Source: Haloferax volcanii DS2 (GTDB lineage: Archaea > Halobacteriota > Halobacteria > Halobacteriales > Haloferacaceae). From it: DNA of 32,000 bases. A model generated the notes under the pieces. The model was given only the letters and a program-made list of their open reading frames with translations. It was not told the origin of the DNA and did not search any database. A program made the translations under genes and the position numbers. Shown here piece by piece: positions 1,520 to 25,335 of this stretch (the stretch's first letter is position 1; the number at the start of each line of letters is the position of its first letter). The DNA is taken from assembly GCF_000025685.1 (NCBI RefSeq), contig NC_013966.1, positions 360,001 through 392,000 of the forward strand. Direction: 5' to 3'.

Positions 1520-2917
1520 CAGTACCTCACAAAGCATCCTCGCCTAGCTGTCTCTGAAGCCTGAATTCTGTGGCCGAGCGGTTGCATTGGCGGTCTCGAC
1601 GACAGAATCATGGACGGATCGGCGGAGAGCCGTCGCTGTCGGCGGCGGCTGCCGCCGACGCGACAGCGTCGCCACTCCCACCGTTGGCTAGCCCGGTCGG
1701 GAGTTACCGGTGGAACCGGTCGTCCGGTGGCCGGTTCGCGGGGACGGCCCGACGCGTCGCGAGGGCCGTCCACGCTGCCCGTCGGATCATGTTGATGAAC
1801 TCCTTGAATGGCCACTGCCAGAGGCGACGCCCGCCTCGGCGGGGCGTCGCCACGTACTCCCAGTGCAGATACCGCCACACGTTCTGTAACAGCAAGCTCA
1901 CCACGACGTACAGCAGCCGTACAACCGGATTTTGTGTCGAGGTCGTCGCGATACTTTGTTCAGAGAGTCGATAGCTTGCCTCGATACCGAAGCGTTTCGC
2001 GTAGTGGTATCGAGCGTCTCGTGGTGAGTCGATGAACGGCGCGTCAGCGGCGTAGCCGTGACGCGCCACCCCATGTTCGTCGTACCGTCCGTTCTGGTAG
2101 GTACAGTCGATGTAGACGGGGAACTCGACGGTCCAGCTGTGACCGTCGAGTCTCGCCGTCAGACTGTGCTGAATCACGCGACTCCAGCCTTCCGAGAGTT
2201 CTTGCTTGATTGATTGTCCCCAGCGGACGATCGGCATGACGTACGCGTGGTTGTGCGCCTGAAGCAGCGTCAAGCACTTGCTGTCGTAGAATTCGCGGTC
2301 AAGATAGACGGCCTTGACGTTGAGGTCAAGGCCGTCGAGGATACCGAGAAACCCAGCGAGGACGCTGCTGGCGGTGTCGCCGTCTTCGAGACGGCGCACC
2401 GCCAGCGTGTATCGTTTGTTCTTCACGCGCGCGTAGAGTGTCGCGTAGGCGTGGAACGCGGTGGTTCCACGCTTCGCTTGGGAATGATAGAGACCGTCGG
2501 TGTCGTCTTCGTCTCCATAGTAGGGCCGCAGGTGGAGGTCTGCGCAGACCTCCACCTGCTTGGGGAGGACGTCGAGAACGTCTTTCTGGAGGAGCGTGTT
2601 GCCAACTCGTTGGAGTTGGTCCAGTTCAAACTTCGTTCGGAGATGGTAGAGGACCGTGTTTGCGGGAGGCGCGTCTTCACTGTTTTCGCAGAGCGTGGAG
2701 ACGGAGGTCCCGTCGGTGCATGCACCGACGAGGACCTCGTAGATGTTCTCTGCATCGATTTTAGCGTTGTTGGCGAGATTCAGAGAAACTTCCTCGTCAA
2801 GTCGGTTGACGAGGAAGTTAAGGAGCTGGTCCTCGTGGATTTCACTGTCTGCTTGCTTGGTATTAGACACACCTTCTGCAAGCAGACGTCTCAACTAACC
2901 GGCTTTGTGATGTACTG
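1520..2917 (-). mobile_element. ISH3-family insertion sequence, copy 1 (1398 bp, ISH27/ISH51-like), intact with target-site duplication
   Basis: Terminal inverted repeats are CAGTACCTCACAAAGC (1520-1535) and GCTTTGTGATGTACTG (2902-2917), matching 15/16 when reverse-complemented. Direct 5-bp AGTAT lies at 1515-1519 and 2918-2922. There is a single transposase ORF. Confidence 0.9.
1704..2870 (-). CDS. ISH3-family DDE transposase
   Basis: ORF track 1704..2894. The sequence ...NTKQADSEIHEDQLLNFLVNRLDEEV...VEVCADLHLRPYYGDEDDTDGLYHSQAKRGTTAFHAYATLYARV...AVYLDREFYD...RFGIEASYRLSEQ matches my recollection of haloarchaeal ISH3-family transposases. GTG at 2870 (MSNTKQAD...) is a likelier start than the TTG at 2894, which lies in the terminal repeat region. 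Confidence 0.9.
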   Translation of the reverse strand: MSNTKQADSEIHEDQLLNFLVNRLDEEVSLNLANNAKIDAENIYEVLVGACTDGTSVSTLCENSEDAPPANTVLYHLRTKFELDQLQRVGNTLLQKDVLDVLPKQVEVCADLHLRPYYGDEDDTDGLYHSQAKRGTTAFHAYATLYARVKNKRYTLAVRRLEDGDTASSVLAGFLGILDGLDLNVKAVYLDREFYDSKCLTLLQAHNHAYVMPIVRWGQSIKQELSEGWSRVIQHSLTARLDGHSWTVEFPVYIDCTYQNGRYDEHGVARHGYAADAPFIDSPRDARYHYAKRFGIEASYRLSEQSIATTSTQNPVVRLLYVVVSLLLQNVWRYLHWEYVATPRRGGRRLWQWPFKEFINMIRRAAWTALATRRAVPANRPPDDRFHR

Positions 2918-3009
2918 AGTATAGTTCGGGTGGACTTGTCTGAATATTGGATAACTTGTCAACCGGCCATAAAGTATATGCACTTAGGATGACACATCAT
3001 GTTTGCTGT

Positions 3010-3651
3010 ATGACCAGAAATATTGACAGAAAAAGCATTGACCTTTCGAACATCAATCGTAGGAGGTTTGTCCAAGGTGTTAGTTCTACAGTAGGCGTAA
3101 GCGGATTAGGTGTCTCAGGACTTGGAAAGGCCTCTGCGGAGGGTGCACGTGAGTATATTGGGGTGTCATATGATACTAGAACTCACATCACCCAGCGGAA
3201 ATGTACTGCATCACTTAATTATAAACCAGATGGTAGACTGAGTGGGATACTGAAGATTGCAGGTTATAATATACCAGTGGGATCTGACGGAAGGATAAAA
3301 CCGAACTCGAGCTCTGATATGTGGTCTTACTGGATTGAAAAAGAAGAAGAGAAATTCCAGGAAGATGACCAAAAACTACAAATTAGGCTCAACTTCGATG
3401 GAGATAGAATGGTTGGGTGGATGACTCGTCCCACCCCAAAGTTTGCCAAACTCAGCTTCTCGATGAATGCTGTGGATAGAGGTGCAACTATGGACAAAAT
3501 AGAGAGCGCTCTTAATCCAAAGGATCTCTCAAAATTCGACAAAAACCCCACTATCCCTCAAAAAGGAATTCCAACAGAAACGTCAATTCAGAATATGAGA
3601 GTGAAGCCTGATAAGTCAGAAAACTATCTCAAAAAGAGAGGTGGTGAGTGA
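3010..3651 (+). CDS. Tat-signal secreted protein, unknown function (AT-rich cassette 1, gene A)
   Basis: Internal ATG at 3010 of ORF 2947..3651 gives MTRNIDRKSIDLSNINRRRFVQGVSSTVGVSGLGVSGLGKASA-EG. This is a twin-arginine motif (RRRFVQG), an h-region and an AxA cleavage site. The stop overlaps the next gene's start. Confidence 0.6.
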   Translation: MTRNIDRKSIDLSNINRRRFVQGVSSTVGVSGLGVSGLGKASAEGAREYIGVSYDTRTHITQRKCTASLNYKPDGRLSGILKIAGYNIPVGSDGRIKPNSSSDMWSYWIEKEEEKFQEDDQKLQIRLNFDGDRMVGWMTRPTPKFAKLSFSMNAVDRGATMDKIESALNPKDLSKFDKNPTIPQKGIPTETSIQNMRVKPDKSENYLKKRGGE

Positions 3652-4424
3652 TGGAAGATTCAGACGATGTTTCAGTTATTTCGGAGTTCCCAGATAGTGG
3701 TGAGATGTCGATTGATACTAGTACTAATGGGTGTACTACGGATATCGAGGAAACAACAAACTGGGAATACGCAGCAGCTATCTCAGCTGAAGGAGAGAAT
3801 GAGAATATCACGCTTGGGGAAAGTGAATACAAAAATATTTATATCCATGACATGTTCCCTGATCTTCCCACAGATCTCTTGGGTGGCTGTTCGTTTTCAA
3901 CTGGCAGCTACCCATCCGAACCCAGTCCTGATTCAGTAACTTACTCTCTAAATGTTGCTGATGATAAGATATCCCTGTCAGAACCAGTCCCGTGGCCTGA
4001 CGATGACGATAATGAAAATGATTACGACGACTTAGCGGCAATTTCGATAGCTATCGTTGGTGCATTCGTGGCTCCGTGGAAGTCTATTGCTCTATCTGGC
4101 ATCTCTCTTTTGCTTGACACTGATTTGCAAGATCCGATTACGTTTGATCGAGATACATCCAATGGCGAAACGTTCACTTGGGACTATCTATTGGATGCTA
4201 GTTCAGGATTAGATGGGTTTCCGGATACCCGAGAAGAAACTGGTGGTATCCGTGCAAGTGTGCGTAATGAGGGATTGGGATCTGGTGACTACACAGACAT
4301 CTCTGTTGACACGTCATTCACGTTTCGAGTCCCCTCTCTTGGTGGATACTGCCCATGTGAAGGCTATGTTTTAGTCAATGAGACTGCTGAGAGTTCGTTC
4401 CTGGAATTAGTCGAAGGCGAATAG
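3651..4424 (+). CDS. very acidic protein with a central ~28-aa hydrophobic segment, unknown function (cassette 1, gene B)
   Basis: ORF track 3648..4424; GTG 3648 or ATG 3651 overlaps the upstream TGA at 3649-3651. It has D/E-rich flanks (PWPDDDDNENDYDD) around LAAISIAIVGAFVAPWKSIALSGISLLL. No signal peptide. Confidence 0.55.
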   Translation: MEDSDDVSVISEFPDSGEMSIDTSTNGCTTDIEETTNWEYAAAISAEGENENITLGESEYKNIYIHDMFPDLPTDLLGGCSFSTGSYPSEPSPDSVTYSLNVADDKISLSEPVPWPDDDDNENDYDDLAAISIAIVGAFVAPWKSIALSGISLLLDTDLQDPITFDRDTSNGETFTWDYLLDASSGLDGFPDTREETGGIRASVRNEGLGSGDYTDISVDTSFTFRVPSLGGYCPCEGYVLVNETAESSFLELVEGE

Positions 4425-5228: not shown

Positions 5229-5702
5229 CAGTACCTCACAAAGCCGTTTAGTTAGAAGGTCTGCTTGCTGAAGATGTGTCCAACAACCAGCAAACAGACG
5301 ATGAAATCCACGAGGACCAGCTCCTTAACTTCCTCGTCAACTCTCTTGACGAGGAAGTTGCTCTCTCACTCGCTGAAAACGCTGAACTCGATGCTGAAGA
5401 CATCTACGAGGTCCTCGTCGGCGCCTGCGCCGACGGGACCTCGGTCTCAACGCTCTGTGAGAGAAGCGAAAATGCACCCCACGAAAACTCCGTTCTCTAC
5501 CATCTCCGCACTAAATTCGATCTAGAAACGCTCGAACAGGTGGGCAACATGCTCCTCCAGAAAGACGTTCTCGACGTCCTTCCCCAGCAGGTGGAGGTCT
5601 GCGCAGACCTCCACCTGCGGCCCTACTATGGTGACGAAGACGACACGGACGGCCTGTATCACTCACAAGCGAAGCGTGGAACCACCGCGTTCCACGCGTA
5701 CG
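5229..5702 (+). mobile_element. ISH3-family 5' fragment (about 474 bp, subtype of copy 4), truncated by the IS4-family element
   Basis: It starts with CAGTACCTCACAAAGCCGTTTAGTTAGAAGG at 5229. ORF 5276..5719 matches the copy-4 transposase N-terminus through ...TTAFHAYA. Homology stops at CACGCGTACGC (about 5703, +/-1 nt). Confidence 0.9.
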
Positions 5703-7147
5703 CATCCGTTCTAGTTTAACGAAGAATCCAGTTGCTGTCTGTTGATTTGATATCGTCGCAACTACCTGATTGAGAAACCCGGTGGGAAGTATGACCTACA
5801 GCCCACCGGATTCGGTCATAGTTGACCGGATTCAAAGAGCGTTTCCCTCTGATGAGTTGCGCGAGCGCGCTCGCGCAACGAATCTCGTCCAACGAGAGCG
5901 GAAATTCGACATCGTTGCGCTGTTCTACACACTCTCGTTTGGCTTCGCTGCTGGCTCAGACCGCTCTCTCCAAGCATTTCTCGAACGCTACGTCGAGATG
6001 GCTGACTGTGACGAACTCTCCTACGCATCGTTCCACGACTGGTTCGAACCAGGATTCGTTGCACTCCTTCGAGAGATTCTCGATGACGCAATCGAGAATC
6101 TCGATACCGGACGAGAAGATTTGAACGGCCGTCTCGAACGCTTTCGAGACGTCCTCATTGCTGACGCAACCATCGTTTCGCTGTACCAGGACGCCGCTGA
6201 TATCTACACAGCAACCGGCGACCATCAAGCCGAACTGAAACTTCACCTCACCGAATCTCTCTCGACTGGGCTCCCGACACGATTCCGGACAACCGATGGG
6301 ACGACTCATGAACGGAGTCAGCTACCCACCGGTGAGTGGGTAGCTGACGCCCTCATCTTGCTCGATTTAGGCTTCTACGACTTCTGGTTGTTCGACCGAA
6401 TCGACCAGAACGGCGGGTGGTTCGTCTCCCGGGTGAAGGACAACGCGAACTTCGAGATCGTCGAAGAACTGCGAACGTGGCGAGGCAACAGCATTCCGCT
6501 GGAAGGAGAGTCGCTGCAGGCCGTCCTTGAGGACCTGCAGCGACAGGAAATCGACGTACGCATCACGCTTTCATTCGAGCGCAAACGAGGGTCGGGCGCC
6601 AGCGCGACCCGGTCGTTCCGATTGGTCGGCCTGCGTAACAAGGAGAGCGAAGAGTACCATCTGTATCTGACGAATCTGGCGAGAGAAAGCTACAGCGCGC
6701 CCGATATCGCGCAGCTCTATCGGGCGCGCTGGGAGGTCGAACTGCTGTTCAAGGAGTTGAAGTCGCGGTTCGGCTTGGACGAGATCAAGACGACCGACGG
6801 CTACATCATCGAGGCGCTGATCATCATGGCCGCAATTTCGTTGATGATGAGTCGTGTAATCGTGGATGAGTTACGGTCGCTCGAGGCAAGACAGCGAGAG
6901 GGCGAAGCCGCCGCAGACGCCGACTCGTCGGCGTCGCGGCTCCCTCGGCGTCGCTGTTCGCTCGCCGTGGAACGCCACGGTCATCTAATCCAGTTGTATC
7001 TCATGATCGAGTTGGGCTACGAACTGCCGGATTTGGACGAGCTGTTGCTGTGGGCGTCGCGTAATCCAAATCCACACAGGCAACGGTTACGTGAGCAGGT
7101 TGAACGAGGTGAGTTCGGCTTTGATCGCTACTAAACTAGAACGCATG
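5703..7147 (+). mobile_element. IS4-family insertion sequence (~1445 bp)
   Basis: Terminal inverted repeats are CATCCGTTCTAGTTTA (5703-5718) and TAAACTAGAACGCATG (7132-7147), matching 15/16. There is a single transposase ORF. No matching target duplication is seen in the flanks (CGCGTACG / GCTGGCCC). Confidence 0.85.
5791..7134 (+). CDS. IS4-family DDE transposase
   Basis: ORF track 5770..7134 (TTG); the first ATG is at 5791 (MTYSPPDS...). It contains YRARWEVELLFKELKS, an exact fit to the IS4-family Y-x2-R-x3-E-x6-K signature. Upstream are ADATIVSL and LLDLGFYD, DDE-like acidic positions. Confidence 0.88.
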   Translation: MTYSPPDSVIVDRIQRAFPSDELRERARATNLVQRERKFDIVALFYTLSFGFAAGSDRSLQAFLERYVEMADCDELSYASFHDWFEPGFVALLREILDDAIENLDTGREDLNGRLERFRDVLIADATIVSLYQDAADIYTATGDHQAELKLHLTESLSTGLPTRFRTTDGTTHERSQLPTGEWVADALILLDLGFYDFWLFDRIDQNGGWFVSRVKDNANFEIVEELRTWRGNSIPLEGESLQAVLEDLQRQEIDVRITLSFERKRGSGASATRSFRLVGLRNKESEEYHLYLTNLARESYSAPDIAQLYRARWEVELLFKELKSRFGLDEIKTTDGYIIEALIIMAAISLMMSRVIVDELRSLEARQREGEAAADADSSASRLPRRRCSLAVERHGHLIQLYLMIELGYELPDLDELLLWASRNPNPHRQRLREQVERGEFGFDRY

Positions 7148-7271
7148 GCTGGCCCACGAAGATCTGAGCCCGACTGACCTCCGAAACCGGATTAACACGC
7201 TCCCCAGCGGAGAGTGGATCGCCCAACTCCCGAGTCCATCATTCGGGGAGACCGGCCCAGCCCCGTTTTCG

Positions 7272-8417
7272 GTGAAGCCGCTCCCGATCGCGGCCGGCCA
7301 TCCAGAGAGCGACGAGCCGTTGTCTGTCGAACAGGCGGACCATTTTGAGACTGTCGCTCTCCCACGACTGTCGGAGCGAACACAGGCTCAGTATGGGCTT
7401 GCTGAGACTCCCATCGAACCGGAGACAGCCGAAGATGAGGGCTGGGGGAGTAGACCAAACGATAAACAGCCGGCACCAGCTGATTCGGCTAACTCGGTGG
7501 ACTCGCCGCAGTCGTCGTTCATCGGACAAGCAACCAGTGGTTCAGCAAGCGACGACGAGAAGCAAGAGAACGGCGCTGACACCACCACCTCCTTGTTTGG
7601 GAATACTGGGATGGCTGAGTCGGGCAAGCCAGCCGATGAAGAAGAGAAGGCTGCTGTCGACGAAAGTGGGTCGTCACCAGTCCAGTCTGGTGGTGTACCC
7701 GTCCCGGATGACGAGCTCCAGCGCCGTGGGCTTACTCATGATGATGTTCGGTTCTTGGCTCGCGTCTTGGACGTGATGAACAGAGATGCACCAAATCACA
7801 CGCTCCTGAATCATATGAGTGCGTTCAAGAGCGATTTTGGGAATCTGGACGTACAACGACTTGCCGAGCAAAACCTGCTGGAAGAAGGGCGAGCCTGTAG
7901 TCGGAAATACTATACTGTCCTCCCGGCAGGCCGTGAACTCCTCGGTCAGAAGCTTAAGGTCGGTCTTGGTCAGGGGGACATCGGTGAGAAGACACCGCAC
8001 AAGGTCGGTGTGAAGCTGCTCGAACGGTGGTTAGACTCCCGCGACGACGTCGCACAGGTCAAGCCGTACTACGAATACGATGAGGAGACGGTGTTCGACG
8101 TCGCCGGCTTCGACGCTGACGGGGAACTCGTGTGGGTCGGTGAAGCCGAACTCCAGAGTAACAACAAACACGCTCCGGTTGACGACTACGACAAGCAGAG
8201 TGCGGTGGATGCGAACGCTGTCTGGGCGTTCAACAGGCGCGAGACGGCCGTCGAGGTGTTGGACTGTCTCGCAGAAGCCGACCGGATAGAGCATAGCGTA
8301 GGCGGGCGCGCCGCGCGCCGGTTCTCGGATATTCGAGAAGCCGTTGAATCGCTAAACGCAGAAGGGATGACGACGATTCGGAGCTTCAACAAGCTTGACG
8401 AGGAGTTCAATTCATGA
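7272..8417 (+). CDS. hypothetical protein: disordered acidic N-half, then a winged-helix-like region and a PD-(D/E)xK-like C-terminal region; probably 5'-truncated by the IS4 element
   Basis: ORF track (GTG start). The same frame stays open upstream to 7140, inside the IS terminal repeat. The C-terminal half has RKYYTVLPAGRELLG and FDVAGFDADGELVWVGEAELQS. The stop overlaps the next start (ATGA at 8414-8417). Confidence 0.6.
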   Translation: MKPLPIAAGHPESDEPLSVEQADHFETVALPRLSERTQAQYGLAETPIEPETAEDEGWGSRPNDKQPAPADSANSVDSPQSSFIGQATSGSASDDEKQENGADTTTSLFGNTGMAESGKPADEEEKAAVDESGSSPVQSGGVPVPDDELQRRGLTHDDVRFLARVLDVMNRDAPNHTLLNHMSAFKSDFGNLDVQRLAEQNLLEEGRACSRKYYTVLPAGRELLGQKLKVGLGQGDIGEKTPHKVGVKLLERWLDSRDDVAQVKPYYEYDEETVFDVAGFDADGELVWVGEAELQSNNKHAPVDDYDKQSAVDANAVWAFNRRETAVEVLDCLAEADRIEHSVGGRAARRFSDIREAVESLNAEGMTTIRSFNKLDEEFNS

Positions 8418-9298
8418 GTTGGCGCCACGCAACCCGTGAGGAGATCTACAGGTACTACACGGAGGAGTTTCCCTCGTATGTCGACGAACTCCCGTCGTTT
8501 ATCACCGCGAAGGGGCCGAAACAGTACGCACTCGCGTTTCGAGAACCACATCCGGTACGGAAAGACGGAGTCCCAGACAAGGACTTCATCCGGCGAGATA
8601 CGTGGCAGACGAACGCCTCAGGTGACCGGACCTCAGCAGCGTTCCACGACTTCGACGACGTCCTCGAGTTCATCCGCCATCCAGCACGGAACGATCCACT
8701 TGGGCGGAGCGACTTCGCACTCGTCGATCCTGATCTACTCGACAAACCAGACCCGCGTCCTAATGCGGTCTACTACGCCCTCGACCACTGGGAACGACCG
8801 TGGGTACTCCTCATCGATATCGACGCGAAAACGATCGCTCGGGAGCGAGCAACACGGGTAGTGTCGGATGAGGATGGTTCGGGAGACAGCGAGGAATTAC
8901 TCGATGCCGCGGGTATTCTCGACGCAGACCCGGCAGGCTACCCGTATGCCTTCGATGATATCGATCAGGCCATCGAGTACGGTTTCGAGGTGCGAGACAT
9001 CTTCGAGGACGACTTCAACGCTGAGGAGACGATGGTAGTGTACAGCGGTCAGGGCGTTCACGTCTACCTCCTTGACAGCGATCCAGCCCATCGGTACGAC
9101 GCCAAGAGTCGAGAAGTGCTGAACGACCTTCTGCAAGACACCTACGAGATTCCTATCGACCCAGTGGTTACCGCCGACCGTCGCCGGGTCGCCCGGCTCC
9201 CCTACTCGTTGCACGCTGACGTCTGTAGTATCGTCACGCCCATCGAGAGCCCGAACTTCGACGTTCGGTCTGCGAGACCGGAGGTGCTCAGGGAATGA
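8414..9298 (+). CDS. archaeo-eukaryotic primase (AEP) catalytic subunit, PriS-like
   Basis: Three AEP motifs occur in order: WVLLIDIDAK (DxD, about 8801-8830), VVYSGQGVHVYLL and DPVVTADRRRVARLPYSLHAD. It is translationally coupled on both sides. Confidence 0.85.
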   Translation: MSWRHATREEIYRYYTEEFPSYVDELPSFITAKGPKQYALAFREPHPVRKDGVPDKDFIRRDTWQTNASGDRTSAAFHDFDDVLEFIRHPARNDPLGRSDFALVDPDLLDKPDPRPNAVYYALDHWERPWVLLIDIDAKTIARERATRVVSDEDGSGDSEELLDAAGILDADPAGYPYAFDDIDQAIEYGFEVRDIFEDDFNAEETMVVYSGQGVHVYLLDSDPAHRYDAKSREVLNDLLQDTYEIPIDPVVTADRRRVARLPYSLHADVCSIVTPIESPNFDVRSARPEVLRE

Positions 9299-10806
9299 CT
9301 CAGTCAACACCTGTTGAGGACGAGCGGGCCGCCTATCGCGTTGCGACGCTTCCGCCCGAATATGGGACGACGCGAATCAACCAACTGTTCACCCGGGGCT
9401 ACAATCGCTATATCGTCGACGGCGAAGAGCAACCAGGTGATCTACTGACCGACCTCGAACGGTTTGGGACGGCGGCATTCAAAGAAGATGTCAGAGCCAA
9501 CGCCGCAGAGAAACCCTTCGTCGATAAACCTGGAATACTCGCTGTCCTCGCGACGTTGAGTGCTATCTGCGTTAAGGCGCACCCGAAGTTCGAGCACGCC
9601 CCGCCACGGAAGATACAGGTCCTCTACGATATTCGCGAACTCTACGTCAACAATCTCGCCTCCCTCCTTCGAGAATTCGGTGATGGGAGTCTCCAACAGG
9701 ATATCGCAGAGGTGCTATACGCAAAAGACCCCGGAGAGGACGGACCACACCCCGGTCGCGTTTGTACGGGGATCAAAGAGATGCCCAAGTTCGGTGACAG
9801 GTTGTATCTCGAAATCCCGATGGCCGCAGCATCGAGGAAGTGCCTCGTTCATGCCGAAACTGAGACCGGAGAAGCCGGGGAGTTGCTCACTCGCGTCGAA
9901 AACAACTGCCTCTATGTGCCCGTCGGTGATTTCGACACGAAGTATCGCGAGTACGCCAGTCGTGCGTTCAAGAAGCTCCTACGGGTCCAGGAGAAGAACC
10001 TCTCTGAAGACCAGATGACGTGGCTAACGACGAATGAGTCGGCCATCACAGAGCGTATCGACCGCTTCATCGAGACGGGACACCACGAACGAATCTGGCG
10101 AGATTGGAACCCCGGTGAACGGACCATCCGTGTGCTCAGAGACGCGATTCGAGACGCTCCAGACGAGGTCGTCTCACTGGGGGAGTTCCACTCGGCGAAG
10201 GAGCTGTTTGAAGCAGTGGAGGCGTACGATCCGGAAGCGGGCTGGAAGCGAGACGTGTGTAATCGCATCTCGAGTCCTCGGAGTCTCGGGAACCTTCTCG
10301 CATCCCAGCGCGACCACCGGAGCCTGACCATTCGGGAGCACAGAAATACGAACCACTATCGGATTCAGGAGTCTTCGCGTGGCGTCCAGCCCCTCGACGT
10401 CGAGGCAATCGAAGACCTGTTCGAACTCCCCTGTATGGCCAATATGGCCGAGCGCCTCCACGAGAAGAAGCCAGTCCGAAAGGACCTGTACAACTTCGCC
10501 CGGATGGTGATGTGGCTGCCACAGTATCAGGACAGCGACCTTGAGACGATTGTTGCAGACCTCAAGGGCGTCTTCTCGCGTTGGCCTTGGTACGACGAGC
10601 AGGTCACCGACTACCAGATTCGCTACGAGTTCTCGAACACCATTGGAGGCGACACCCCGCTTCCGATGAACTGTGACAACGACGATATGCAGCGGTACTG
10701 CATCGGCCAGGAGCAGTGCCCCTACTCGATCTGGGGAAGTCTCCCCTTCCCAGACGAGATGTATGACCAACTAAGTGGAACGGAGGGTAACGGAAACGAG
10801 TTCTGA
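9295..10806 (+). CDS. PriL-like primase large-subunit homolog (putative 4Fe-4S C-terminal domain)
   Basis: The C-terminal third reads FELPCMANMAERLHEKKPVRKDLYNFARMV...TDYQIRYEFSNTIGGDTPLPMNCDNDDMQRYCIGQEQCPYS. This resembles the PriL Fe-S domain pattern (PPCM...L, Y-x-IRH-x-F/Y, a distal Cys, and C-P-F/Y). ATGA overlap with the PriS-like gene at 9295-9298. Confidence 0.7.
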   Translation: MTQSTPVEDERAAYRVATLPPEYGTTRINQLFTRGYNRYIVDGEEQPGDLLTDLERFGTAAFKEDVRANAAEKPFVDKPGILAVLATLSAICVKAHPKFEHAPPRKIQVLYDIRELYVNNLASLLREFGDGSLQQDIAEVLYAKDPGEDGPHPGRVCTGIKEMPKFGDRLYLEIPMAAASRKCLVHAETETGEAGELLTRVENNCLYVPVGDFDTKYREYASRAFKKLLRVQEKNLSEDQMTWLTTNESAITERIDRFIETGHHERIWRDWNPGERTIRVLRDAIRDAPDEVVSLGEFHSAKELFEAVEAYDPEAGWKRDVCNRISSPRSLGNLLASQRDHRSLTIREHRNTNHYRIQESSRGVQPLDVEAIEDLFELPCMANMAERLHEKKPVRKDLYNFARMVMWLPQYQDSDLETIVADLKGVFSRWPWYDEQVTDYQIRYEFSNTIGGDTPLPMNCDNDDMQRYCIGQEQCPYSIWGSLPFPDEMYDQLSGTEGNGNEF

Positions 10807-11352: not shown

Positions 11353-11619
11353 ATGTCTTCCGACTACGAGCAACAGCGATCACGACTTCATAGCGAGTAC
11401 ACTGAACAACCGAGCGACGAACCGTGGACAGATCTCGAACTGGCGCTCCCTCACAACAGAAGTCCGACTGGCATCGTCTCATTTGTTGAGTGCGTACTCG
11501 TCGAACTTACCTACGAAGACGTCGGAGCCGAGTTCGTCTCGACGAGCGTAGCGGGCGTGAAGCGGACACAGTTCATCGCCGTCGACGACGAGGCAGTATC
11601 TGAAACGGAAGCTCGCTGA
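11353..11619 (+). CDS. small acidic hypothetical protein
   Basis: Internal ATG at 11353 of ORF 11275..11619 gives MSSDYEQQRSRLHSEYTEQPSDEPW... with halophile-like acidic composition. No family recognised. Confidence 0.4.
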   Translation: MSSDYEQQRSRLHSEYTEQPSDEPWTDLELALPHNRSPTGIVSFVECVLVELTYEDVGAEFVSTSVAGVKRTQFIAVDDEAVSETEAR

Positions 11620-13201: not shown

Positions 13202-14380
13202 TCATTCACAGTTCGTTCGTAGCGTCACCGTATTCCCTGACGTGTAAAGTAGACCCCGGATGACAGGAACATATCCCGTCGAAGATGCCTCGGATACAGC
13301 CCACAGCTCGCTACCGTCCTCAATGCTCAGACCGACAGTCCGGTCAGTCGTCGGAACGACGACCGACTCCCCAACGACCAATGGAGGGCCTGCGACATCA
13401 AGGGCTTGTTCCCACTGGACGTCTCCACTCTCAACGGCCAGCGCATACACGGTTTCCTTGTCCGCGCTGAAAACGCGGCGGTGCCCGACCGCTGGCGCGA
13501 ACAGGTCACCATCGTACATCGCTTTTGACCACTGCCGGTCTCCACTGGTGGCATCGAACGCCACGAGTTCGTAACGGTCGTAGCTCGCCAGGACGATATC
13601 CTCCGTGCGGACGAGCGGTTCCGGGATATTTGGCCCAGGGATCCCCCACTGTGTTTCACCCGTCTCGCGATCCAGCGCGTAGATTCCCTGGGCGGCAGAG
13701 CCATCTGCTGTGATATACACGTGGTCGTCGTCGACGGCTGGCGGTGCAGGGATGCTTGCACGCTGGTGATCGTCACCGAACGACCGCGCCCACTGCGTAT
13801 CGCCGGTAAACGTATCAAGAGCGGTTACATCGCCCCGATCGCTCGTGGCGACGAGGAGGTCGTCAGCGACAGTCGGCGGATTGGGTCTGCCAGCCGTATC
13901 ATGTGTCCAAGTGGTCGTCCAGCTAGCGGTGTTGAGTGCGACGATCCCGCCAGTCGATGGTTCAGTATAGTCGCCAAGTACGGGCGTAACAGCAATCGAA
14001 CCTGCGAGGGCTGGCGGTCCAGTTGGACGCCGATTGAGTTCGTGGGTCGTCTCGGAGGACCCGTCGTCGAGTTGTACGGTTGTCACGATTCCACTCTGCT
14101 CGCGAGACGCGCGGCCGACGACGACAGCCGTATCATTTGTGGCAACGAGTCCGGTGATATCGATATCGTCCGCGAGGGAACTCGCCCAATAATCACCGCC
14201 AGCCGTGAGCGTCGGCTGATCGGGAACGGCGTTCGTATTGTGCGGAGAGGCACGTGTCTGTGGCCACTGTGCGACGCCAGGATCTGTCGGCGTACACGAG
14301 CTGGTCTGGCAGCCAGCAGTTGCCGCGAGAACTGTCGTGGCTGAGACTGCAAGGTATTCACGGCGCGATATGGAGGGCAT
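13202..14380 (-). CDS. PQQ-like beta-propeller repeat protein with Tat/lipoprotein signal
   Basis: ORF 13202..14428; the likely start is [24 protein letters not shown] at 14380. It has repeated G(D/E)xxW blades: GDTQWAR, GETQWGI, GDRQWSK, GDVQWEQ, GSELWAV. Confidence 0.8.
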
Positions 14381-14509
14381 CTGACCGAAACGTCGGATAC
14401 AGAACCCATAGGGGTTTTGGATATCCATCAGTGGGCGGGGTTACTCGAAGCCAGCTGCTATTTTTCGCGGGGCTTGAAGAACTGAGCCCCTCTGTAGGCT
14501 CGTGATTTG

Positions 14510-15336: not shown

Positions 15337-16735
15337 CAGTACATCACAAAGCTGGTTAGTTGAGACGTCCGCTTGCTGAAGGTGTGTCTAATACCAAGCA
15401 AGCAGACGGTTCAATCCACGAGGACCAGCTCCTTAACTTCCTCGTCAACTCCCTTGACGAGGAAGTTGCACTCACTCTCGGTGAAAACGCTGAAATCGGT
15501 GCTGAAGACATCTACGAGGTCCTCGTCGGCGCCTGCGCCGACGGGACCTCGGTCTCTACACTCTGCAAGAGAAGCGAAGATGCACCTCACGAAAACTCGG
15601 TTCTCTACCATCTCCGCACCAAGTTCGACCTCGAGACGCTCGAACAAATCGGGAACACGCTCCTCCAGAAGGACGTTCTCGACGTCCTGCCTGAGCAGGT
15701 GGAGGTCTGCGCAGACCTCCACCTGCGGCCCTACTATGGTGACGAAGACGACACGGACGGTCTCTATCACTCCCAAGCAAAGCGTGGAACCACCGCGTTC
15801 CACGCGTACGCGACACTGTACGCACGCGTGAAGAACAAACGCTACACGCTGGCGGTGCGCCGTCTCGAAGACGGCGACACCGCCAGCAGTGTCCTCGCAG
15901 AGTTCCTCGGTATTCTCGACGGCCTTGACCTCGGTGTCAAGGCCGTCTATCTTGACCGCGAATTCTACGACAGCAAGTGTTTGACGCTGCTTCAGGCGCA
16001 CAACCACGCGTACGTCATGCCGATCGTCCGCTGGGGACGAACGATCAAGCGAGAACTCTCAGAAGGGTGGAGTCGCGTGATTCAGCACAGTCTGACAGCG
16101 AAACTCGACGGTCACAGCTGGACCGTCGAGTTTCCCGTCTACATCGACTGTACCTACCAGAACGGACGGTACGACGAACATGGCGTGGCGCGTCACGGCT
16201 ACGCCGCTGACGCGCCGTTCATCAACTCACCACGAGACGCTCGATACCACTACGCGAAACGCTTCGGTATCGAGGCGAGCTACCGACTCTCCGAGCAAAC
16301 GATTGCGACGACTACGACACAGAATCCGGTCGTACGGCTGTTGTACGTCGTGGTGAGTTTGCTGTTACAGAACGTGTGGCGGTATCTGCACTGGGAGTAC
16401 GTGGCGACGCCCCGCCGAGGCGGGCGTCGCCTCTGGGAGTGGTCGTACAAGGAATTCACCAACTTGATTCGACGGGCAGCGTGGACGGCCCTCGCGGTGC
16501 GTCGGGCCGTCCCCGCGAACCGGCCACCAGACGACCGGTTTAGCCGGTAACTCTTGACCGGGCTAGCCAGCGGTGTGAGTGGCGACGCTGTCGCGTCAGC
16601 GGCTGACCGCCGCCGACAGCGACAGCTCTCCACCGATTCGTCCATGATTCTCCCGTCGAGACCGTCAATGCAACCGCTCCGACACAGAACTCAGGCTTCA
16701 GAAACAGCTAGCCGAGGATGCTTTGTGAGGTACTG
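15337..16735 (+). mobile_element. ISH3-family insertion sequence, copy 3 (1399 bp), intact with target-site duplication
   Basis: Terminal repeats are CAGTACATCACAAAGC (15337-15352) and GCTTTGTGAGGTACTG (16720-16735). Direct AAAAT lies at 15332-15336 and 16736-16740. Confidence 0.9.
15384..16550 (+). CDS. ISH3-family DDE transposase
   Basis: ORF track 15360..16550; the likely GTG start is at 15384 (MSNTKQADGSIHEDQLLNFLVNSLDEEV...). It is collinear over its full length with the other two copies. Confidence 0.9.
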   Translation: MSNTKQADGSIHEDQLLNFLVNSLDEEVALTLGENAEIGAEDIYEVLVGACADGTSVSTLCKRSEDAPHENSVLYHLRTKFDLETLEQIGNTLLQKDVLDVLPEQVEVCADLHLRPYYGDEDDTDGLYHSQAKRGTTAFHAYATLYARVKNKRYTLAVRRLEDGDTASSVLAEFLGILDGLDLGVKAVYLDREFYDSKCLTLLQAHNHAYVMPIVRWGRTIKRELSEGWSRVIQHSLTAKLDGHSWTVEFPVYIDCTYQNGRYDEHGVARHGYAADAPFINSPRDARYHYAKRFGIEASYRLSEQTIATTTTQNPVVRLLYVVVSLLLQNVWRYLHWEYVATPRRGGRRLWEWSYKEFTNLIRRAAWTALAVRRAVPANRPPDDRFSR

Positions 16736-18106: not shown

Positions 18107-19504
18107 CAGTACCTCACAAAGCATCCTCGCCTAGCTGTCTCTGAAGCCTGAATTCTGTGGCCGAGCGGTTGCATTGGCGGTCTCGACGACAGAATCATGG
18201 ACGGATCGGCGGAGAGCCGTCGCTGTCGGCGGCGGCTGCCGCCGACGCGACAGCGTCGCCACTCCCACCGTTGGCTAGCCCGGTCGGGAGTTACCGGTGG
18301 AACCGGTCGTCCGGTGGCCGGTTCGCGGGGACGGCCCGACGCGTCGCGAGGGCCGTCCACGCTGCCCGTCGGATCATGTTGATGAACTCCTTGAATGGCC
18401 ACTGCCAGAGGCGACGCCCGCCTCGGCGGGGCGTCGCCACGTACTCCCAGTGCAGATACCGCCACACGTTCTGTAACAGCAAGCTCACCACGACGTACAG
18501 CAGCCGTACAACCGGATTTTGTGTCGAGGTCGTCGCGATACTTTGTTCAGAGAGTCGATAGCTTGCCTCGATACCGAAGCGTTTCGCGTAGTGGTATCGA
18601 GCGTCTCGTGGTGAGTCGATGAACGGCGCGTCAGCGGCGTAGCCGTGACGCGCCACCCCATGTTCGTCGTACCGTCCGTTCTGGTAGGTACAGTCGATGT
18701 AGACGGGGAACTCGACGGTCCAGCTGTGACCGTCGAGTCTCGCCGTCAGACTGTGCTGAATCACGCGACTCCACCCTTCTGAGAGTTCTTGCTTGATTGA
18801 TTGTCCCCAGCGGACGATCGGCATGACGTACGCGTGGTTGTGCGCCTGAAGCAGCGTCAAACACTTGCTGTCGTAGAATTCGCGGTCAAGATAGACGGCC
18901 TTGACACCGAGGTCAAGGCCGTCGAGAATACTGAGGAACTCTGCGAGGACACTGCTGGCGGTGTCGCCGTCTTCGAGACGGCGCACCGCCAGCGTGTAGC
19001 GTTTGTTCTTCACGCGTGCGTACAGCGTCGCGTACGCGTGGAACGCGGTGGTTCCACGCTTCGCTTGTGAGTGATACAGGCCGTCCGTGTCGTCTTCGTC
19101 ACCATAGTAGGGCCGCAGGTGGAGGTCTGCGCAGACCTCCACCTGCTGGGGAAGGACGTCGAGAACGTCTTTCTGGAGGAGCATGTTGCCAACCTGTTCG
19201 AGCGTTTCTAGATCGAATTTAGTGCGGAGATGGTAGAGAACGGAGTTTTCGTGGGGTGCATCTTCGCTTCTCTCACAGAGCGTTGAGACCGAGGTCCCGT
19301 CGGCGCAGGCGCCGACGAGGACCTCGTAGATGTCTTCAGCATCGAGTTCAGCGTTTTCAGCGAGTGAGAGAGCAACTTCCTCGTCAAGAGAGTTGACGAG
19401 GAAGTTAAGGAGCTGGTCCTCGTGGATTTCATCGTCTGCTTGCTGGGTTTTAGACACACCTTCTGCAAGCAGACCTTCTAACTAAACGGCTTTGTGAAGT
19501 ACTG
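18107..19504 (-). mobile_element. ISH3-family insertion sequence, copy 4 (1398 bp), intact with target-site duplication
   Basis: Terminal repeats are CAGTACCTCACAAAGC (18107-18122) and GCTTTGTGAAGTACTG (19489-19504). Direct AGGAT lies at 18102-18106 and 19505-19509. Confidence 0.9.
18291..19457 (-). CDS. ISH3-family DDE transposase
   Basis: ORF track, 388 aa, MSKTQQADDEIHEDQLLNFLVNSLDEEV.... The C-terminal ~160 aa are identical to copy 1. Confidence 0.9.
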   Translation of the reverse strand: MSKTQQADDEIHEDQLLNFLVNSLDEEVALSLAENAELDAEDIYEVLVGACADGTSVSTLCERSEDAPHENSVLYHLRTKFDLETLEQVGNMLLQKDVLDVLPQQVEVCADLHLRPYYGDEDDTDGLYHSQAKRGTTAFHAYATLYARVKNKRYTLAVRRLEDGDTASSVLAEFLSILDGLDLGVKAVYLDREFYDSKCLTLLQAHNHAYVMPIVRWGQSIKQELSEGWSRVIQHSLTARLDGHSWTVEFPVYIDCTYQNGRYDEHGVARHGYAADAPFIDSPRDARYHYAKRFGIEASYRLSEQSIATTSTQNPVVRLLYVVVSLLLQNVWRYLHWEYVATPRRGGRRLWQWPFKEFINMIRRAAWTALATRRAVPANRPPDDRFHR

Positions 19505-22783: not shown

Positions 22784-23311
22784 TGATGTCCAATCCTACA
22801 AAGGGACGGCCCATATATCATTCCACAATTGACAGAAGAAAAGAACCATATGAAGACAGATACAGTTGGTGTGGCACGACTGCGGTCATGAATTCAACAT
22901 CCTGAAAGCCCCCGGACGCTCGACGACCGCGACTCGCTGCGCGCCTCGTTCCTGCGGTGCTTGCGTCGTCGGGGCACGCCGAGCGTCCAGGTCCAGCCCC
23001 TTTGATCCCCCCGTGGTCTATTGTGGGGGTCAACGATGCACGTCGGTAGTCCGGTGTGATATGAACGGCACGCCCCGCTCGCCGCCCTGTGCCCTCCGTG
23101 CTCACGACTCGCGTTGCTCGCTGTTCGCGACGAGTCGCTCCTGTTAGTCGCGTCTCGCTTCACTCGCACCTTCCCGGTGCGCCAGCACCAAGCGCGCTGT
23201 CGGTCGCGACGCCCTCACAGGCTCGGTCGTCGGACGCGAAACCGGCTTGTGTGCTGGCCGCTCGCTCCGGGCGGGTCGGCGCGCGGTGCTGGTTGGGGCC
23301 ACCTCATGCAG

Positions 23312-23367
23312 GCGCGCTCTCGCTCGCGCCCGGTAGGGCGCTCGCGAAGGCGCGAGCGAGAGCGCGC
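23312..23367. repeat. perfect 19-bp GC-rich inverted repeat with an 18-nt spacer
   Basis: GCGCGCTCTCGCTCGCGCC (23312-23330) and GGCGCGAGCGAGAGCGCGC (23349-23367) are exact reverse complements. The repeat ends 86 nt upstream of the OB-fold gene start. Confidence 0.9.
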
Positions 23368-23452
23368 AGATGGTTCTGTCGGTCGTTGTCGTCGGAAAAC
23401 TGCGATGTAGGAGCATCGCGGAGTCGGCGCGTGAGCGCCTTCGGAATCTGGT

Positions 23453-25298: not shown

Positions 25299-25335
25299 AC
25301 GCCGACGAAAATCACTGGAATCTTCGAGTAACTTC

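What the first reader, a model, noticed from the sequence alone, without database searches (positions are those of the whole stretch)
7148..10806. Coupled three-gene module on a mobile element: wHTH/nuclease-like protein, PriS-like primase and PriL-like Fe-S subunit
Seen: three same-strand ORFs have ATGA stop/start overlaps at 8414-8417 and 9295-9298.
- ORF2 carries the three AEP catalytic motifs in order: LLIDIDAK, SGQGVHVY, RRRVARLPYSLHAD.
- ORF3's C-terminal third has four Cys in PriL-like local contexts: LPCMANMAERL, YQIRYEF, PMNCDN, YCIGQEQCPYS.
- ORF1 ends with a winged-helix-like stretch and then FDVAGFDADGELVWVGEAELQS, which is reminiscent of PD-(D/E)xK.

Known: the cellular archaeal primase is a PriS/PriL heterodimer. 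As far as I recall, its genes are usually chromosomal and not adjacent. Some archaeal plasmids carry fused PriS plus PriL-CTD replicases (the Thermococcus pTN2 type).

Inference: this is a separate PriS/PriL pair carried in an IS-rich accessory region and operonically tied to a DNA-binding/nuclease-like partner. It could be a self-contained replication-initiation module for a plasmid or provirus. Less likely, it is a DNA-targeting accessory system. I do not know of this three-gene arrangement having been characterised. It is my best candidate for the undescribed system in this window.
Basis: partly seen in the sequence, partly recalled or inferred. Interest (0 to 1): 0.75.

Follow-up and report, generated by a model that had tools for sequence, protein, structure and literature searches.

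The report
Truncated conjugation operon with primase pair
This is the tail end, cut off by an insertion sequence, of a conjugation-like (type IV secretion) operon common on haloarchaeal megaplasmids: a fragment of the DNA-pumping ATPase gene followed by intact genes for a small PriS-like primase and its already-named "primase-associated" partner, so it is a decayed copy of a known gene set and not a new three-gene system.

Summary
The ORFs, the ATGA overlaps and every quoted motif are real. The "three-gene module" is not a unit, however.

- **ORF1 is a gene fragment.** It is the last ~423 codons of a ~1,270-aa VirD4/HerA-like ATPase gene. Homology to intact copies starts at base 7148, exactly where an ISH5-like IS ends.
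- **The intact context is a T4SS-like operon.** In about 70 haloarchaeal plasmid or genome loci the order is TrbL/VirB6-like, VirB4-like, big ATPase, primase, primase-associated protein, with conserved 4-nt overlaps. None of the upstream part is in this window.
- **ORF2 is a minimal PriS-like AEP.** The three catalytic motifs are conserved across 74 homologues (the two Asp of motif I invariant), and there is no Zn knuckle.
- **ORF3 belongs to a named family.** It matches NCBIfam NF038197 (E 4e-256) and Pfam WH_Halo_primase. Its C-terminal domain, with four invariant Cys, gives recurrent but sub-threshold hits to PriL models.
- **The surviving ORF1 part is a wHTH plus a restriction-endonuclease-like fold.** The conserved acidic residues form D…ExE.

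Best reading: a transfer-associated two-subunit primase and the DNA-recognition/cleavage tail of the coupling ATPase, here a relic.

Its module boundaries and its claim of an autonomous, undescribed system do not. Interest is low to moderate.

The parts
5703..7147 (+). ISH5-like IS4-family insertion sequence (transposase ORF 5770-7134) that truncates the operon
   Evidence: Terminal inverted repeats lie at 5703-5718 and 7132-7147. Plasmid matches here are annotated 'IS4-like element ISH5 family transposase'. The left flank is an ISH3-family transposase fragment and the right flank is the ATPase fragment, with no shared target duplication. The junction is therefore a rearrangement, not a simple insertion.
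7148..8417 (+).
   Evidence: Homology to H. alexandrinus pBNX82-1 (L001) starts at window ~7145-7148 (blastn from 7145; sequence inspection puts the junction at 7148), which corresponds to about residue 856 of the 1,279-aa 'ATP-binding protein'. The P-loop (DUF87/HerA, residues ~498-548) and everything upstream are absent from the window. The first possible start codon is GTG 7272.
7698..7955 (+). Winged helix-turn-helix domain of the ATPase tail
   Evidence: AF2 model m58219856beee has pLDDT 93 and pTM 0.90. Helices 14-27, 40-46 and 52-57 plus the hairpin 61-74 form the domain. Foldseek hits include RIOK2 wHTH, MarR, ArsR, Sso10a and AspA. JGI annotators call fragments 'PadR family'.
7980..8414 (+). 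Restriction-endonuclease-like (PD-(D/E)xK-fold) domain with D134...E149-x-E151
   Evidence: The model has an alpha-beta-beta-beta-alpha-beta core at residues 99-193. Foldseek finds NucS 2vld (probability 0.96, E 8e-3), EndoMS 5gke, YaeQ, SfsA and EcoT38I, but none at E < 1e-3. E97, H101, K102, D134, E149, E151, D163, Y164 and K166 are invariant in 71 unique homologues.
8414..9298 (+). PriS-like archaeo-eukaryotic primase, 294 aa, intact
   Evidence: Profile hits are PF01896 E 1.7e-5, TIGR00335 E 9e-9 and NF001639 E 1.2e-7. PDB PriS chains 1g71, 1v33 and 9f26 align at motifs I, II and III and at the N-terminal 'R..T.EE...Y' stretch. D135 and D137 are invariant; H216, D255, R261 and H267 are conserved in at least 90% of 74 sequences. 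The protein has one Cys only, so no Zn knuckle.
9295..10806 (+). Primase-associated protein (NF038197 family), 503 aa, intact: N-terminal helical domain, central winged helix, C-terminal 4-Cys domain
   Evidence: NF038197 matches at E 4e-256 over residues 6-497. Precomputed Pfam families are DUF8140, WH_Halo_primase and DUF8111. The AF2 model has pLDDT 84.6. Its winged helix (~273-357) hits Zur, Fur and FoxP3, with weak hits to PriL chains 8g9f_C and 1zt2_B.
10387..10803 (+). Cys-rich C-terminal domain of ORF3 (C380, C460, C469, C475), a candidate PriL-type Fe-S domain
   Evidence: The four Cys are invariant. PF04104 is hit by 5 of 24 members (best E 1.2e-4). PriL NCBIfam models NF002589, NF002591 and NF002588 are hit by 11, 7 and 5 of 24 members. 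The window's own domain scores E 0.097 for residues 426-475 against PriL positions 281-329 of 348. All hits are below curated cut-offs.
11353..11590 (+). Downstream conserved small gene (DUF8030-type); similarity to the L001 copy ends at 11590
   Evidence: tblastn gives 97% identity over residues 1-79 of the 141-aa L001 protein. The DNA match to L001 ends at 11590. PF26073 DUF8030 is recorded on the 88-aa product called downstream of ORF3 in L083.

Best explanation
Window 7148-10806 is a relic of the distal end of a T4SS-type (conjugation-like) operon that forms the backbone of a large family of haloarchaeal megaplasmids.

**The intact element (shown).** The operon encodes small membrane proteins, a TrbL/VirB6-like protein, a VirB4-like ATPase and a ~1,270-aa VirD4/HerA-like DNA-translocating ATPase. 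That ATPase's C-terminal tail is an acidic linker, a winged helix and a restriction-endonuclease-like domain. Two further genes are joined to it by conserved 4-nt start/stop overlaps: a minimal PriS-like AEP primase and a 503-aa 'primase-associated protein'.

**The mechanism (inferred).**
- The ATPase tail recognises and cuts or nicks the plasmid at a transfer site, standing in for the missing relaxase.
- The ATPase pumps the DNA.
- The PriS-like/PriL-like pair acts as a two-subunit primase that primes complementary-strand synthesis on the transferred or displaced strand, as the plasmid primases of bacterial conjugation do.

**This window (shown).** An IS-mediated rearrangement removed everything upstream of ATPase codon ~856. 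No secretion machinery or motor is left. The primase and its partner remain intact, at 95-96% amino-acid identity to functional-looking copies. The wHTH-nuclease tail survives only as an ORF that could start at GTG 7272. Whether any of it is still expressed is unknown.
For: **Truncation**
- Homology to intact loci begins at the IS end, base 7148.
- tblastn finds ATPase residues 3-424 of the C-terminal part only. It finds nothing for the ATPase N-terminal part, VirB4, TrbL or the upstream proteins anywhere in the window.

**Operon context**
- In L001 and L002 the genes upstream are TrbL_3 (PF19590, E 5.7e-133), a VirB4-like ATPase (NF045975 2.5e-35; TIGR00929) and a DUF87/HerA P-loop ATPase.
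- Among 80 genome loci holding an ORF3 homologue, PriS lies directly upstream in 76 of 79 assessable loci and the ATPase N-terminal part in 68 of 73. VirB4 is present in 55 of 67, plus a divergent clade at 26-27% identity. All lie on the same strand.
- The ATGA overlaps are conserved.
- PLSDB types the intact plasmids L001 and L002 as 'MPF_T'. All 95 plasmid records with an ORF3 homologue are 'non-mobilizable', which is consistent with no recognised relaxase.

**Published context (PMC13532300)**
- 133 related plasmids share a T4SS cluster with VirB4 and VirD4/HerA-like ATPases, Orc1/Cdc6, SSB and ArdC-like proteins.
- Replication initiation is therefore provided elsewhere, and functions typical of ssDNA transfer and establishment are present.

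**Protein identities**
- ORF2 is PriS-like.
- ORF3 is NF038197 with a PriL-like 4-Cys domain. The first Cys-Cys spacing is 80 residues, the same as human PRIM2 Cys287-Cys367 (PMC8514734).
- The ATPase tail is a wHTH plus nuclease fold with invariant D, E, E and K residues.

**Recurrent decay**
- Other remnants have different breakpoints: L017, L026, L060, L068, L069, L079.
- pNRC100 keeps only the primase-associated gene, next to an ISH8C element.
Against: - No experiment shows that these plasmids conjugate, that DNA moves as a single strand, or that the primase is needed for transfer. The operon position is circumstantial.
- PriL homology of ORF3 is sub-threshold everywhere. The window's own protein gets no Pfam hit, profile searches against PDB find no PriL, and Foldseek E-values to PriL chains are 0.3-0.6.
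- The nuclease fold hits are also above E 1e-3. The canonical Lys of (D/E)xK is replaced by Glu, so catalytic competence is assumed by analogy with BamHI-type sites (my own knowledge).
- The primase pair could serve vegetative plasmid replication and simply be co-transcribed with the transfer genes.
- The ORF2-ORF3 interaction was not modelled.
Confidence: 0.6

Rival explanations
1. One reading: a self-contained three-gene replication-initiation module (a DNA-binding/nuclease protein plus PriS plus PriL) for a plasmid or provirus.
For: - The protein-level assignments hold.
- Mobile elements often carry their own primases (PMC5862659).
- In one metagenomic lineage a 1-nt deletion makes the wHTH-nuclease tail a separate 380-aa cistron starting at the same GTG. 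It is seen on contigs from at least three samples.
Against: - ORF1 is a truncated gene abutting an IS.
- In 68 of 73 assessable loci the full ATPase is present, with the T4SS genes upstream.
- Other remnants break at different points, so no three-gene unit is conserved.
- The split variant L086 still has the 885-aa ATPase and VirB4 directly upstream.
- The plasmid family carries Orc1/Cdc6.
- There are no homologues in 50,697 phage records.
Confidence: 0.07
2. The primase pair is the plasmid's vegetative replication primase, freeing it from the host PriS/PriL. It merely sits at the end of the transfer operon and has no role in DNA transfer.
For: - Plasmid- and virus-encoded AEPs are commonly replicative (PMC5862659; PMC3914693).
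- The pair is retained intact in several decayed loci where the T4SS is gone: this window, L017, L060 and L079.
Against: - The 4-nt overlap with the coupling-type ATPase is conserved across at least 61 loci.
- An Orc1/Cdc6-type initiator normally recruits host replisome components.
- pNRC100 is stably maintained, yet no primase is annotated beside its primase-associated gene, which directly follows an ISH8C element.
Confidence: 0.25
3. A DNA-targeting accessory or defence system built from a nuclease, a primase-polymerase and a partner protein.
For: A nuclease-fold domain sits next to an AEP. Defence genes such as GmrSD/DUF262 occur nearby in L001.
Against: - There are no significant PADLOC hits (best E 0.034, a spurious HNH match).
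- The nuclease domain is the tail of a T4SS ATPase.
- Synteny is with secretion genes, not defence genes.
Confidence: 0.03

Closest known systems
NCBIfam NF038197 'prim_adj_arch' primase-associated protein, with Pfam WH_Halo_primase (PF26462)/DUF8140/DUF8111, and its adjacent PGAP 'DNA primase'
   Same: ORF3 matches the model end to end at E 4e-256. ORF2 and ORF3 are annotated with exactly these names on 95 haloarchaeal plasmids.
   Different: Nothing differs in sequence terms. This copy sits in an operon that has lost its 5' two-thirds. The family has a name but no characterised function, and I found no paper on it.
T4SS cluster of the pHdsl9-3-related haloarchaeal plasmids (PMC13532300, 2026)
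   Same: It is the same gene cluster: VirB4-like and VirD4/HerA-like ATPases preceded by small membrane proteins. The DSL9 plasmid itself is locus L074 in my set.
   Different: The paper's text does not discuss the primase, the primase-associated protein or the wHTH-nuclease tail of the ATPase. The window holds only the distal remnant.
Cellular archaeal/eukaryotic PriS-PriL primase
   Same: - ORF2 shares AEP motifs I-III and the N-terminal PriS signature.
- It is a separate small catalytic subunit with a larger partner carrying four Cys.
- The first Cys spacing of 80 residues matches human PRIM2.
- There are sub-threshold PriL profile hits.
   Different: - ORF2 is shorter (294 aa) and lacks the Zn-knuckle cysteines.
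- ORF3 has a central winged helix, and its last three Cys are spaced 9 and 6 residues apart instead of 17 and 40.
- The genes are adjacent and overlapping, whereas H. volcanii priS and priL are far apart.
- It is plasmid-borne and linked to a T4SS.
PolpTN2 (Thermococcus pTN2) and nanoarchaeal fused PriS-PriL primases
   Same: These are primases of mobile elements or reduced genomes that combine a PriS-like domain with a PriL Fe-S-like domain and a winged helix (PMC5862659; PMC3914693).
   Different: There the domains are fused in one polypeptide and act as the plasmid replicase. Here they are two cistrons in a transfer operon. I saw no detectable sequence relation.
Bacterial conjugative-plasmid primases (Sog of ColIb-P9, TraC of RP4; the MobA-RepB' fusion of RSF1010)
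   Same: Each is a primase encoded with transfer functions and thought to prime the transferred strand. RepB' is an AEP-type primase fused to a relaxase (for RSF1010; Sog and TraC from my own knowledge).
   Different: Sog and TraC are DnaG/TOPRIM-type enzymes. None has a PriL-like Fe-S partner. A transfer role for the haloarchaeal pair is inferred, not shown.
Streptomyces TraB (an FtsK-like conjugative DNA translocase with a C-terminal wHTH that reads clt repeats; my own knowledge)
   Same: It is a FtsK/HerA-superfamily motor with a C-terminal winged helix and no relaxase in the element.
   Different: TraB has no nuclease domain and moves dsDNA. The haloarchaeal ATPase adds a restriction-endonuclease-like domain and works alongside VirB4 and VirB6 homologues.

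Membership tests
NF038197 primase-associated protein (ORF3) | Full-length match above the curated cut-off (100 bits) | tested here: met
   850.5 bits, E 4e-256, residues 6-497 against model positions 1-493 of 495.
NF038197 primase-associated protein (ORF3) | Adjacency to a primase gene | tested here: met
   A PriS-like gene lies directly upstream in 76 of 79 loci and in the window.
PriS / AEP catalytic subunit (ORF2) | Motif I DxD, motif II SGxGxH and motif III in order, and conserved | tested here: met
   D135/D137, S211-H216 and D255...R261...H267 align to Pfu and Pho PriS. D135/D137 are invariant and the other motif residues are conserved in at least 90% of 74 homologues.
PriS / AEP catalytic subunit (ORF2) | Score above the Pfam PF01896 gathering threshold or the NCBIfam PriS equivalog cut-offs | tested here: not met
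   PF01896 scores 25.7 bits against 26.8. TIGR00335 scores 35.2 against 143.5. ORF2 is a divergent relative, not an orthologue of cellular PriS.
PriS / AEP catalytic subunit (ORF2) | Zn-knuckle cysteines between motifs I and II | tested here: not met
   There is only one Cys in the protein, at position 271 (sequence).
[quoted passage not shown] | Four conserved Cys able to hold a 4Fe-4S cluster | tested here: inconclusive
   C380, C460, C469 and C475 are invariant in 42 sequences. The spacing is 80/9/6 against 80/17/40 in human PRIM2. Cluster binding itself is not testable here.
[quoted passage not shown] | Significant profile match to PF04104 or to the PriL NCBIfam models | tested here: not met
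   All hits are sub-threshold. PF04104 is hit by 5 of 24 members (best E 1.2e-4; 18.3 bits against 22.4 for P0086). NF002589 is hit by 11 of 24 (best E 3.4e-4), and the window's domain scores E 0.097. The hits are recurrent and specific, so remote homology is plausible but membership is not shown.
[quoted passage not shown] | Fold match to solved PriL structures | tested here: inconclusive
[quoted passage not shown] | Forms a complex with the catalytic subunit | not testable with these tools
   No multimer prediction was available. The conserved 4-nt overlap is only suggestive.
PD-(D/E)xK restriction-endonuclease-like nucleases (ORF1 tail) | An alpha-beta-beta-beta-alpha-beta core fold | tested here: met
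   The AF2 model (pLDDT 93) has H99-113, E120-128, E131-138, E144-151, H158-168 and E173-178. The best nuclease hits are NucS, EndoMS, YaeQ and SfsA at probability 0.84-0.97 but E >= 8e-3.
PD-(D/E)xK restriction-endonuclease-like nucleases (ORF1 tail) | Catalytic D ... (D/E)-x-K on strands 2 and 3 | tested here: inconclusive
   D134 on strand 2 and E149-x-E151 on strand 3 are invariant. The Lys position holds Glu. K102 and K166 are invariant and lie on the flanking helices. This resembles the BamHI D/E/E variant (my own knowledge). Activity is untested.
VirD4/HerA-FtsK-type T4SS coupling ATPase (the gene of which ORF1 is a fragment) | A P-loop ATPase domain | tested here: not met
   The domain is present in intact homologues (DUF87 at residues 498-548) but absent from the window, which starts at about residue 856. 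The window's ORF1 cannot act as an ATPase.
T4SS / conjugative element | VirB4 and VirB6/TrbL homologues in the locus | tested here: not met
   They are present in related loci, but tblastn with the L001 homologues found none in the 32-kb window. The window holds a relic, not a T4SS.

The most novel reading that the evidence does not exclude
Haloarchaeal T4SS plasmids may use a relaxase-free transfer chemistry. In this reading, the wHTH plus D...ExE nuclease tail of the VirD4/HerA-like motor recognises and cleaves the transfer origin. A dedicated PriS-like/PriL-like Fe-S primase, translationally coupled to that motor, then re-primes the transferred strand, possibly travelling with it. This would be the first eukaryote-type two-subunit primase assigned to conjugation. 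The window's intact ORF2/ORF3, and perhaps the GTG-initiated wHTH-nuclease ORF, could be a surviving and still active sub-module.
Probability: 0.3. Interest if true: 0.7.

Novelty: new member of a known kind. Interest (0 to 1): 0.33.

Why it matters
For this window it matters little. The locus is a decayed copy of a gene set that annotation pipelines already name, sitting on a plasmid backbone that has been described.

The family itself is more interesting.
- Nobody has shown how archaeal T4SS plasmids outside the Sulfolobales process and re-replicate their DNA, and no relaxase is recognised on them.
- A nuclease-tailed coupling ATPase followed by a PriS/PriL-like primase is a concrete, testable candidate for that missing DNA-processing module. 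Related intact plasmids occur in cultivable genera such as Haloferax, Halobacterium and Natrinema.
- The sub-threshold link of the DUF-labelled 4-Cys domain to PriL would, if confirmed, extend the PriL/PriCT family to a new stand-alone form encoded on mobile elements.

Tried and rejected
**Searches that found nothing useful**
- Pfam, PHROGs and PADLOC on the three ORFs gave nothing for ORF1 or ORF3 and only spurious PADLOC hits.
- Profile searches of the full ORF3 alignment, its C-terminal domain and P0086 against PDB sequences found no PriL, only chance hits to toluene monooxygenase and de novo proteins.
- Foldseek of the ORF3 model against PDB and BFVD recognised only the winged helix.
- DNA and protein searches of 50,697 phage records found no match, so a provirus origin is rejected.
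- Literature searches for the family names found nothing relevant. Makarova 2014 and Kazlauskas 2018 do not cover this family.

**Results that limit the family**
- An exhaustive HMM search of 1.84 billion representatives found only 124 proteins. This is a small, essentially haloarchaeal family with no bridge to annotated PriL.\n- A few 690-840-aa proteins share only the N-terminal two-thirds of ORF3 and have no Pfam domains.

**Ideas considered and rejected**
- A stand-alone wHTH-nuclease gene. The 380-aa ORFs in metagenomes come from a 1-nt deletion inside the ATPase gene, with the ATPase still upstream.
- A simple IS insertion. The two IS flanks are unrelated and share no target duplication.

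Full report
**1. The observation**

Three ORFs lie on the + strand: 7272-8417, 8414-9298 and 9295-10806.

They are real genes.
- The 3.7-kb stretch is 85-96% identical in DNA to at least 15 plasmids from many haloarchaeal genera.
- The ORF3 protein has homologues on 95 PLSDB plasmids and in 121 places in GTDB species genomes.

- The frame is open from 7140, but the first start codon is the GTG at 7272.
- Base 7148 is the first base after the right inverted repeat (7132-7147) of an ISH5-like IS4-family element. Its left repeat is at 5703-5718 and its transposase ORF is 5770-7134.

**2. What ORF1 really is**

On H. alexandrinus pBNX82-1 (L001) and Halopiger pHALXA02 (L002), the DNA matching window 7148-8417 is the last third of a 1,279-aa or 1,268-aa 'ATP-binding protein'.
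- blastn and tblastn show the window holds only residues ~856-1279 of it. Nothing of the N-terminal 855 residues is present anywhere in the 32 kb.
- The junction reads ...aacgcatg|gctggcccacgaag, against ...aatcgctggcccacgaag in the intact gene.
- The left side of the IS is an ISH3-family transposase fragment with no matching target duplication. The truncation is therefore an IS-mediated rearrangement, not a simple insertion.
- The P-loop (DUF87/HerA, residues ~498-548; weak CedD match) is in the missing part.

**3. The intact context**

Upstream of the ATPase in L001 and L002 lie several genes:
- small proteins;
- a TrbL/VirB6-like protein (PF19590, E 5.7e-133);
- a 373-aa protein (its 371-aa counterpart in metagenome contig L086 carries PrgI_like/TraC-like Pfam marks);
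- a VirB4-like ATPase (NF045975 2.5e-35, NF045971, TIGR02746, TIGR00929).

PLSDB types these plasmids as MPF_T but 'non-mobilizable', which is consistent with no recognised relaxase.

I fetched 80 genome loci around ORF3 homologues and scored the neighbours.

| Neighbour upstream of the ORF3 homologue | Present / assessable loci |
|---|---|
| PriS-like gene, directly upstream | 76 / 79 |
| N-terminal part of the big ATPase | 68 / 73 |
| VirB4-like (80% coverage) | 55 / 67, plus a divergent clade (L073-L082) with 26-27% identical VirB4 |
| TrbL-like | 48 / 65 |

- All neighbours are on one strand.
- The 4-nt overlaps are conserved: ATPase/primase in 61 loci and primase/PAP in 66 of 76.
- A 2026 paper describes this plasmid family, pHdsl9-3 plus 132 relatives (the DSL9 plasmid is my L074). 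Its conserved core is Orc1/Cdc6, SSB, TFIIB, ArdC-like proteins and a T4SS cluster with VirB4 and VirD4/HerA-like ATPases. Its text says nothing about the primase genes (PMC13532300).

**4. ORF2**

ORF2 is a divergent, minimal PriS.
- Profile scores are TIGR00335 E 9e-9, NF001639 E 1.2e-7 and PF01896 E 1.7e-5. The Pfam score is 25.7 bits, just under the 26.8-bit cut-off.
- Pyrococcus PriS structures 1g71, 1v33 and 9f26 align at four places: the N-terminal R-x-x-T-x-E-E motif, DIDAK, YSGxGxH and D-x-x-R-x-x-RLPxSLH.
- In 74 unique homologues the two Asp of DIDAK are invariant and the motif II and III residues are conserved in at least 90%.
- ORF2 has a single Cys and so lacks the Zn knuckle. 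It is about 90 residues shorter than H. volcanii's cellular PriS gene (1,158 nt).

**5. ORF3**

ORF3 is a full-length member of NCBIfam NF038197 'primase-associated protein' (E 4e-256). It also carries the Pfam families DUF8140, WH_Halo_primase and DUF8111. The family is small: 124 representatives among 1.84 billion proteins.

An AF2 model (pLDDT 84.6) shows three parts: an N-terminal helical domain, a central winged helix and a helical C-terminal domain. Foldseek recognised only the winged helix with any confidence. PriL chains appear at E 0.3-0.6.

Evidence for a PriL-type Fe-S domain:
- C380, C460, C469 and C475 are invariant.
- The first spacing is 80 residues, as between Cys287 and Cys367 of human PRIM2.
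- When the C-terminal domain is scanned member by member, the only families hit repeatedly are PriL families. PF04104 is hit by 5 of 24 members (best E 1.2e-4). NF002589, NF002591 and NF002588 are hit by 11, 7 and 5 of 24 (best E 3.4e-4). The window's own domain scores E 0.097.

None of these reaches a curated threshold, and profile-versus-PDB searches found no PriL. I therefore treat 'works like PriL' as likely (about 0.7) and 'is a PriL family member' as not shown.

**6. The surviving ATPase tail**

After an acidic, low-complexity linker, the last 239 residues fold confidently (pLDDT 93, pTM 0.90) into a wHTH plus an alpha-beta-beta-beta-alpha-beta core.
- Structural neighbours of the core are NucS/EndoMS, YaeQ, SfsA and a type II restriction enzyme. 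Probabilities reach 0.97 but E is never below 1e-3.
- In 71 unique homologues the following are invariant: G-D-x-G-E97-x-T-P-H101-K102, D134, E149-x-E151, S154, N156, D163-Y164-x-K166 and W176.
- The classical Lys is replaced by Glu, as in BamHI (my own knowledge).

**7. Mechanism**

Three things are shown: the operon membership, the truncation and the domain identities. The rest is inferred.
- The motor's wHTH-nuclease tail is the DNA-recognition and processing function of an element that has no recognised relaxase.
- The PriS-like/PriL-like pair primes the transferred or displaced strand. This parallels bacterial conjugative primases and the MobA-RepB' fusion (Sog and TraC from my own knowledge).
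- SSB and ArdC-like core genes fit ssDNA transfer, and Orc1/Cdc6 covers vegetative initiation.

The main rival is a vegetative replication primase that happens to be co-transcribed with the transfer genes. It is not excluded.

In this window the machine is gone. The primase pair is intact, at 95-96% amino-acid identity to L001, which points to a recent event.

Such decay recurs.
- Six other loci are truncated at different points.
- pNRC100 keeps only the primase-associated gene behind an ISH8C element.

**8. Provenance and novelty**

The exact ORF3 protein occurs on short contigs of GCA_000337315.1 and GCA_018419995.1 that break inside the same IS.

The locus is a new, decayed member of a known and named but functionally uncharacterised family. 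It is not a new system.

Noticed in passing
window 5276-5719 and 5703-7147: The ISH5-like IS sits inside or against a fragment of an ISH3-family transposase gene (ORF 5276-5719). The two IS flanks are unrelated and lack a common target duplication, so IS elements are nested or recombined here.
   Followed up: partly
window ~1704-2894 (-), 15360-16550 (+), 18291-19457 (-): There are three ORFs of about 390 aa in regions whose plasmid matches are annotated as ISH3/ISH27-family transposases. The window is very IS-rich. I did not verify the individual copies.
   Followed up: no
L089 (pNRC100, NC_001869.1 134055-135578): In Halobacterium NRC-1 pNRC100 only the primase-associated gene is annotated here, directly after an ISH8C IS4-like transposase. 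No primase, ATPase or T4SS genes are annotated in the 12 kb upstream. This is another IS-made relic of the same operon in a classic model plasmid.
   Followed up: partly
L086 6480-6620 (JGI metagenome 3300028354 contig, 26.7 kb): A 1-nt deletion relative to the window (ctccccagcgg to ctcctagtgg) frameshifts the ATPase gene. The result is an 885-aa ATPase ending at a TGA that overlaps the same GTG that opens the window's ORF1, followed by a separate 380-aa wHTH-nuclease cistron. The identical 380-aa protein is on contigs from at least three samples.
   Followed up: partly
L085 1-3928 (Halorhabdus amylolytica contig SPQG01000008.1): A divergent ATPase variant (P0125) shares only the end of the motor domain with ORF1 and has a different tail, with a weak Pox_D5 hit. 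It is followed by a 671-aa protein with no Pfam hit. That protein contains 'NKNRQYKPPLSVHADHDAVVTPI', which resembles ORF2's motif III (pairwise E 0.002). It may be a different, larger AEP in the same operon position.
   Followed up: partly
proteins P0233, P0243, P0248, P0249, P0253, P0256: Six representatives of 690-840 aa match only profile positions ~1-330 of the primase-associated protein (the N-terminal domain plus part of the winged helix). They have roughly 400 further residues with no Pfam family. This is an unexplored alternative architecture of the family.
   Followed up: partly
window 23253-24358: A 301-aa ORF (23453-24358) has an OB-fold (PF01336-like, E 1e-4). Its 5' region is 87% identical to the 'DNA-binding protein' gene of pHALXA02, which there lies ~11.5 kb downstream of the primase-associated gene. 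It is possibly the SSB-type core gene of the same plasmid backbone. G+C rises from ~0.43-0.60 to ~0.61-0.66 (1-kb windows) at about 23 kb.
   Followed up: partly
window 24549-31119: This is a higher-GC block of ordinary metabolic genes: M24 peptidase/creatinase-like (25336-26439, -), hydantoinase B (27218-28993, -) and hydantoinase A (28990-31119, -). The likely edge of the mobile-element-derived region lies just upstream of it.
   Followed up: no
window 2947-4424: Two overlapping ORFs (234 and 258 aa) lie in the lowest-GC part of the window (0.43-0.46). Neither has a Pfam family.
   Followed up: no
window 21083-22783 (-) and 13202-14428 (-): A 566-aa metallo-beta-lactamase-fold protein and a 408-aa PQQ-like beta-propeller protein. 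The latter is shared at ~97% identity with H. alexandrinus plasmid NZ_CP106969.1, which also carries only the 3' 262 codons of the primase-associated gene.
   Followed up: no
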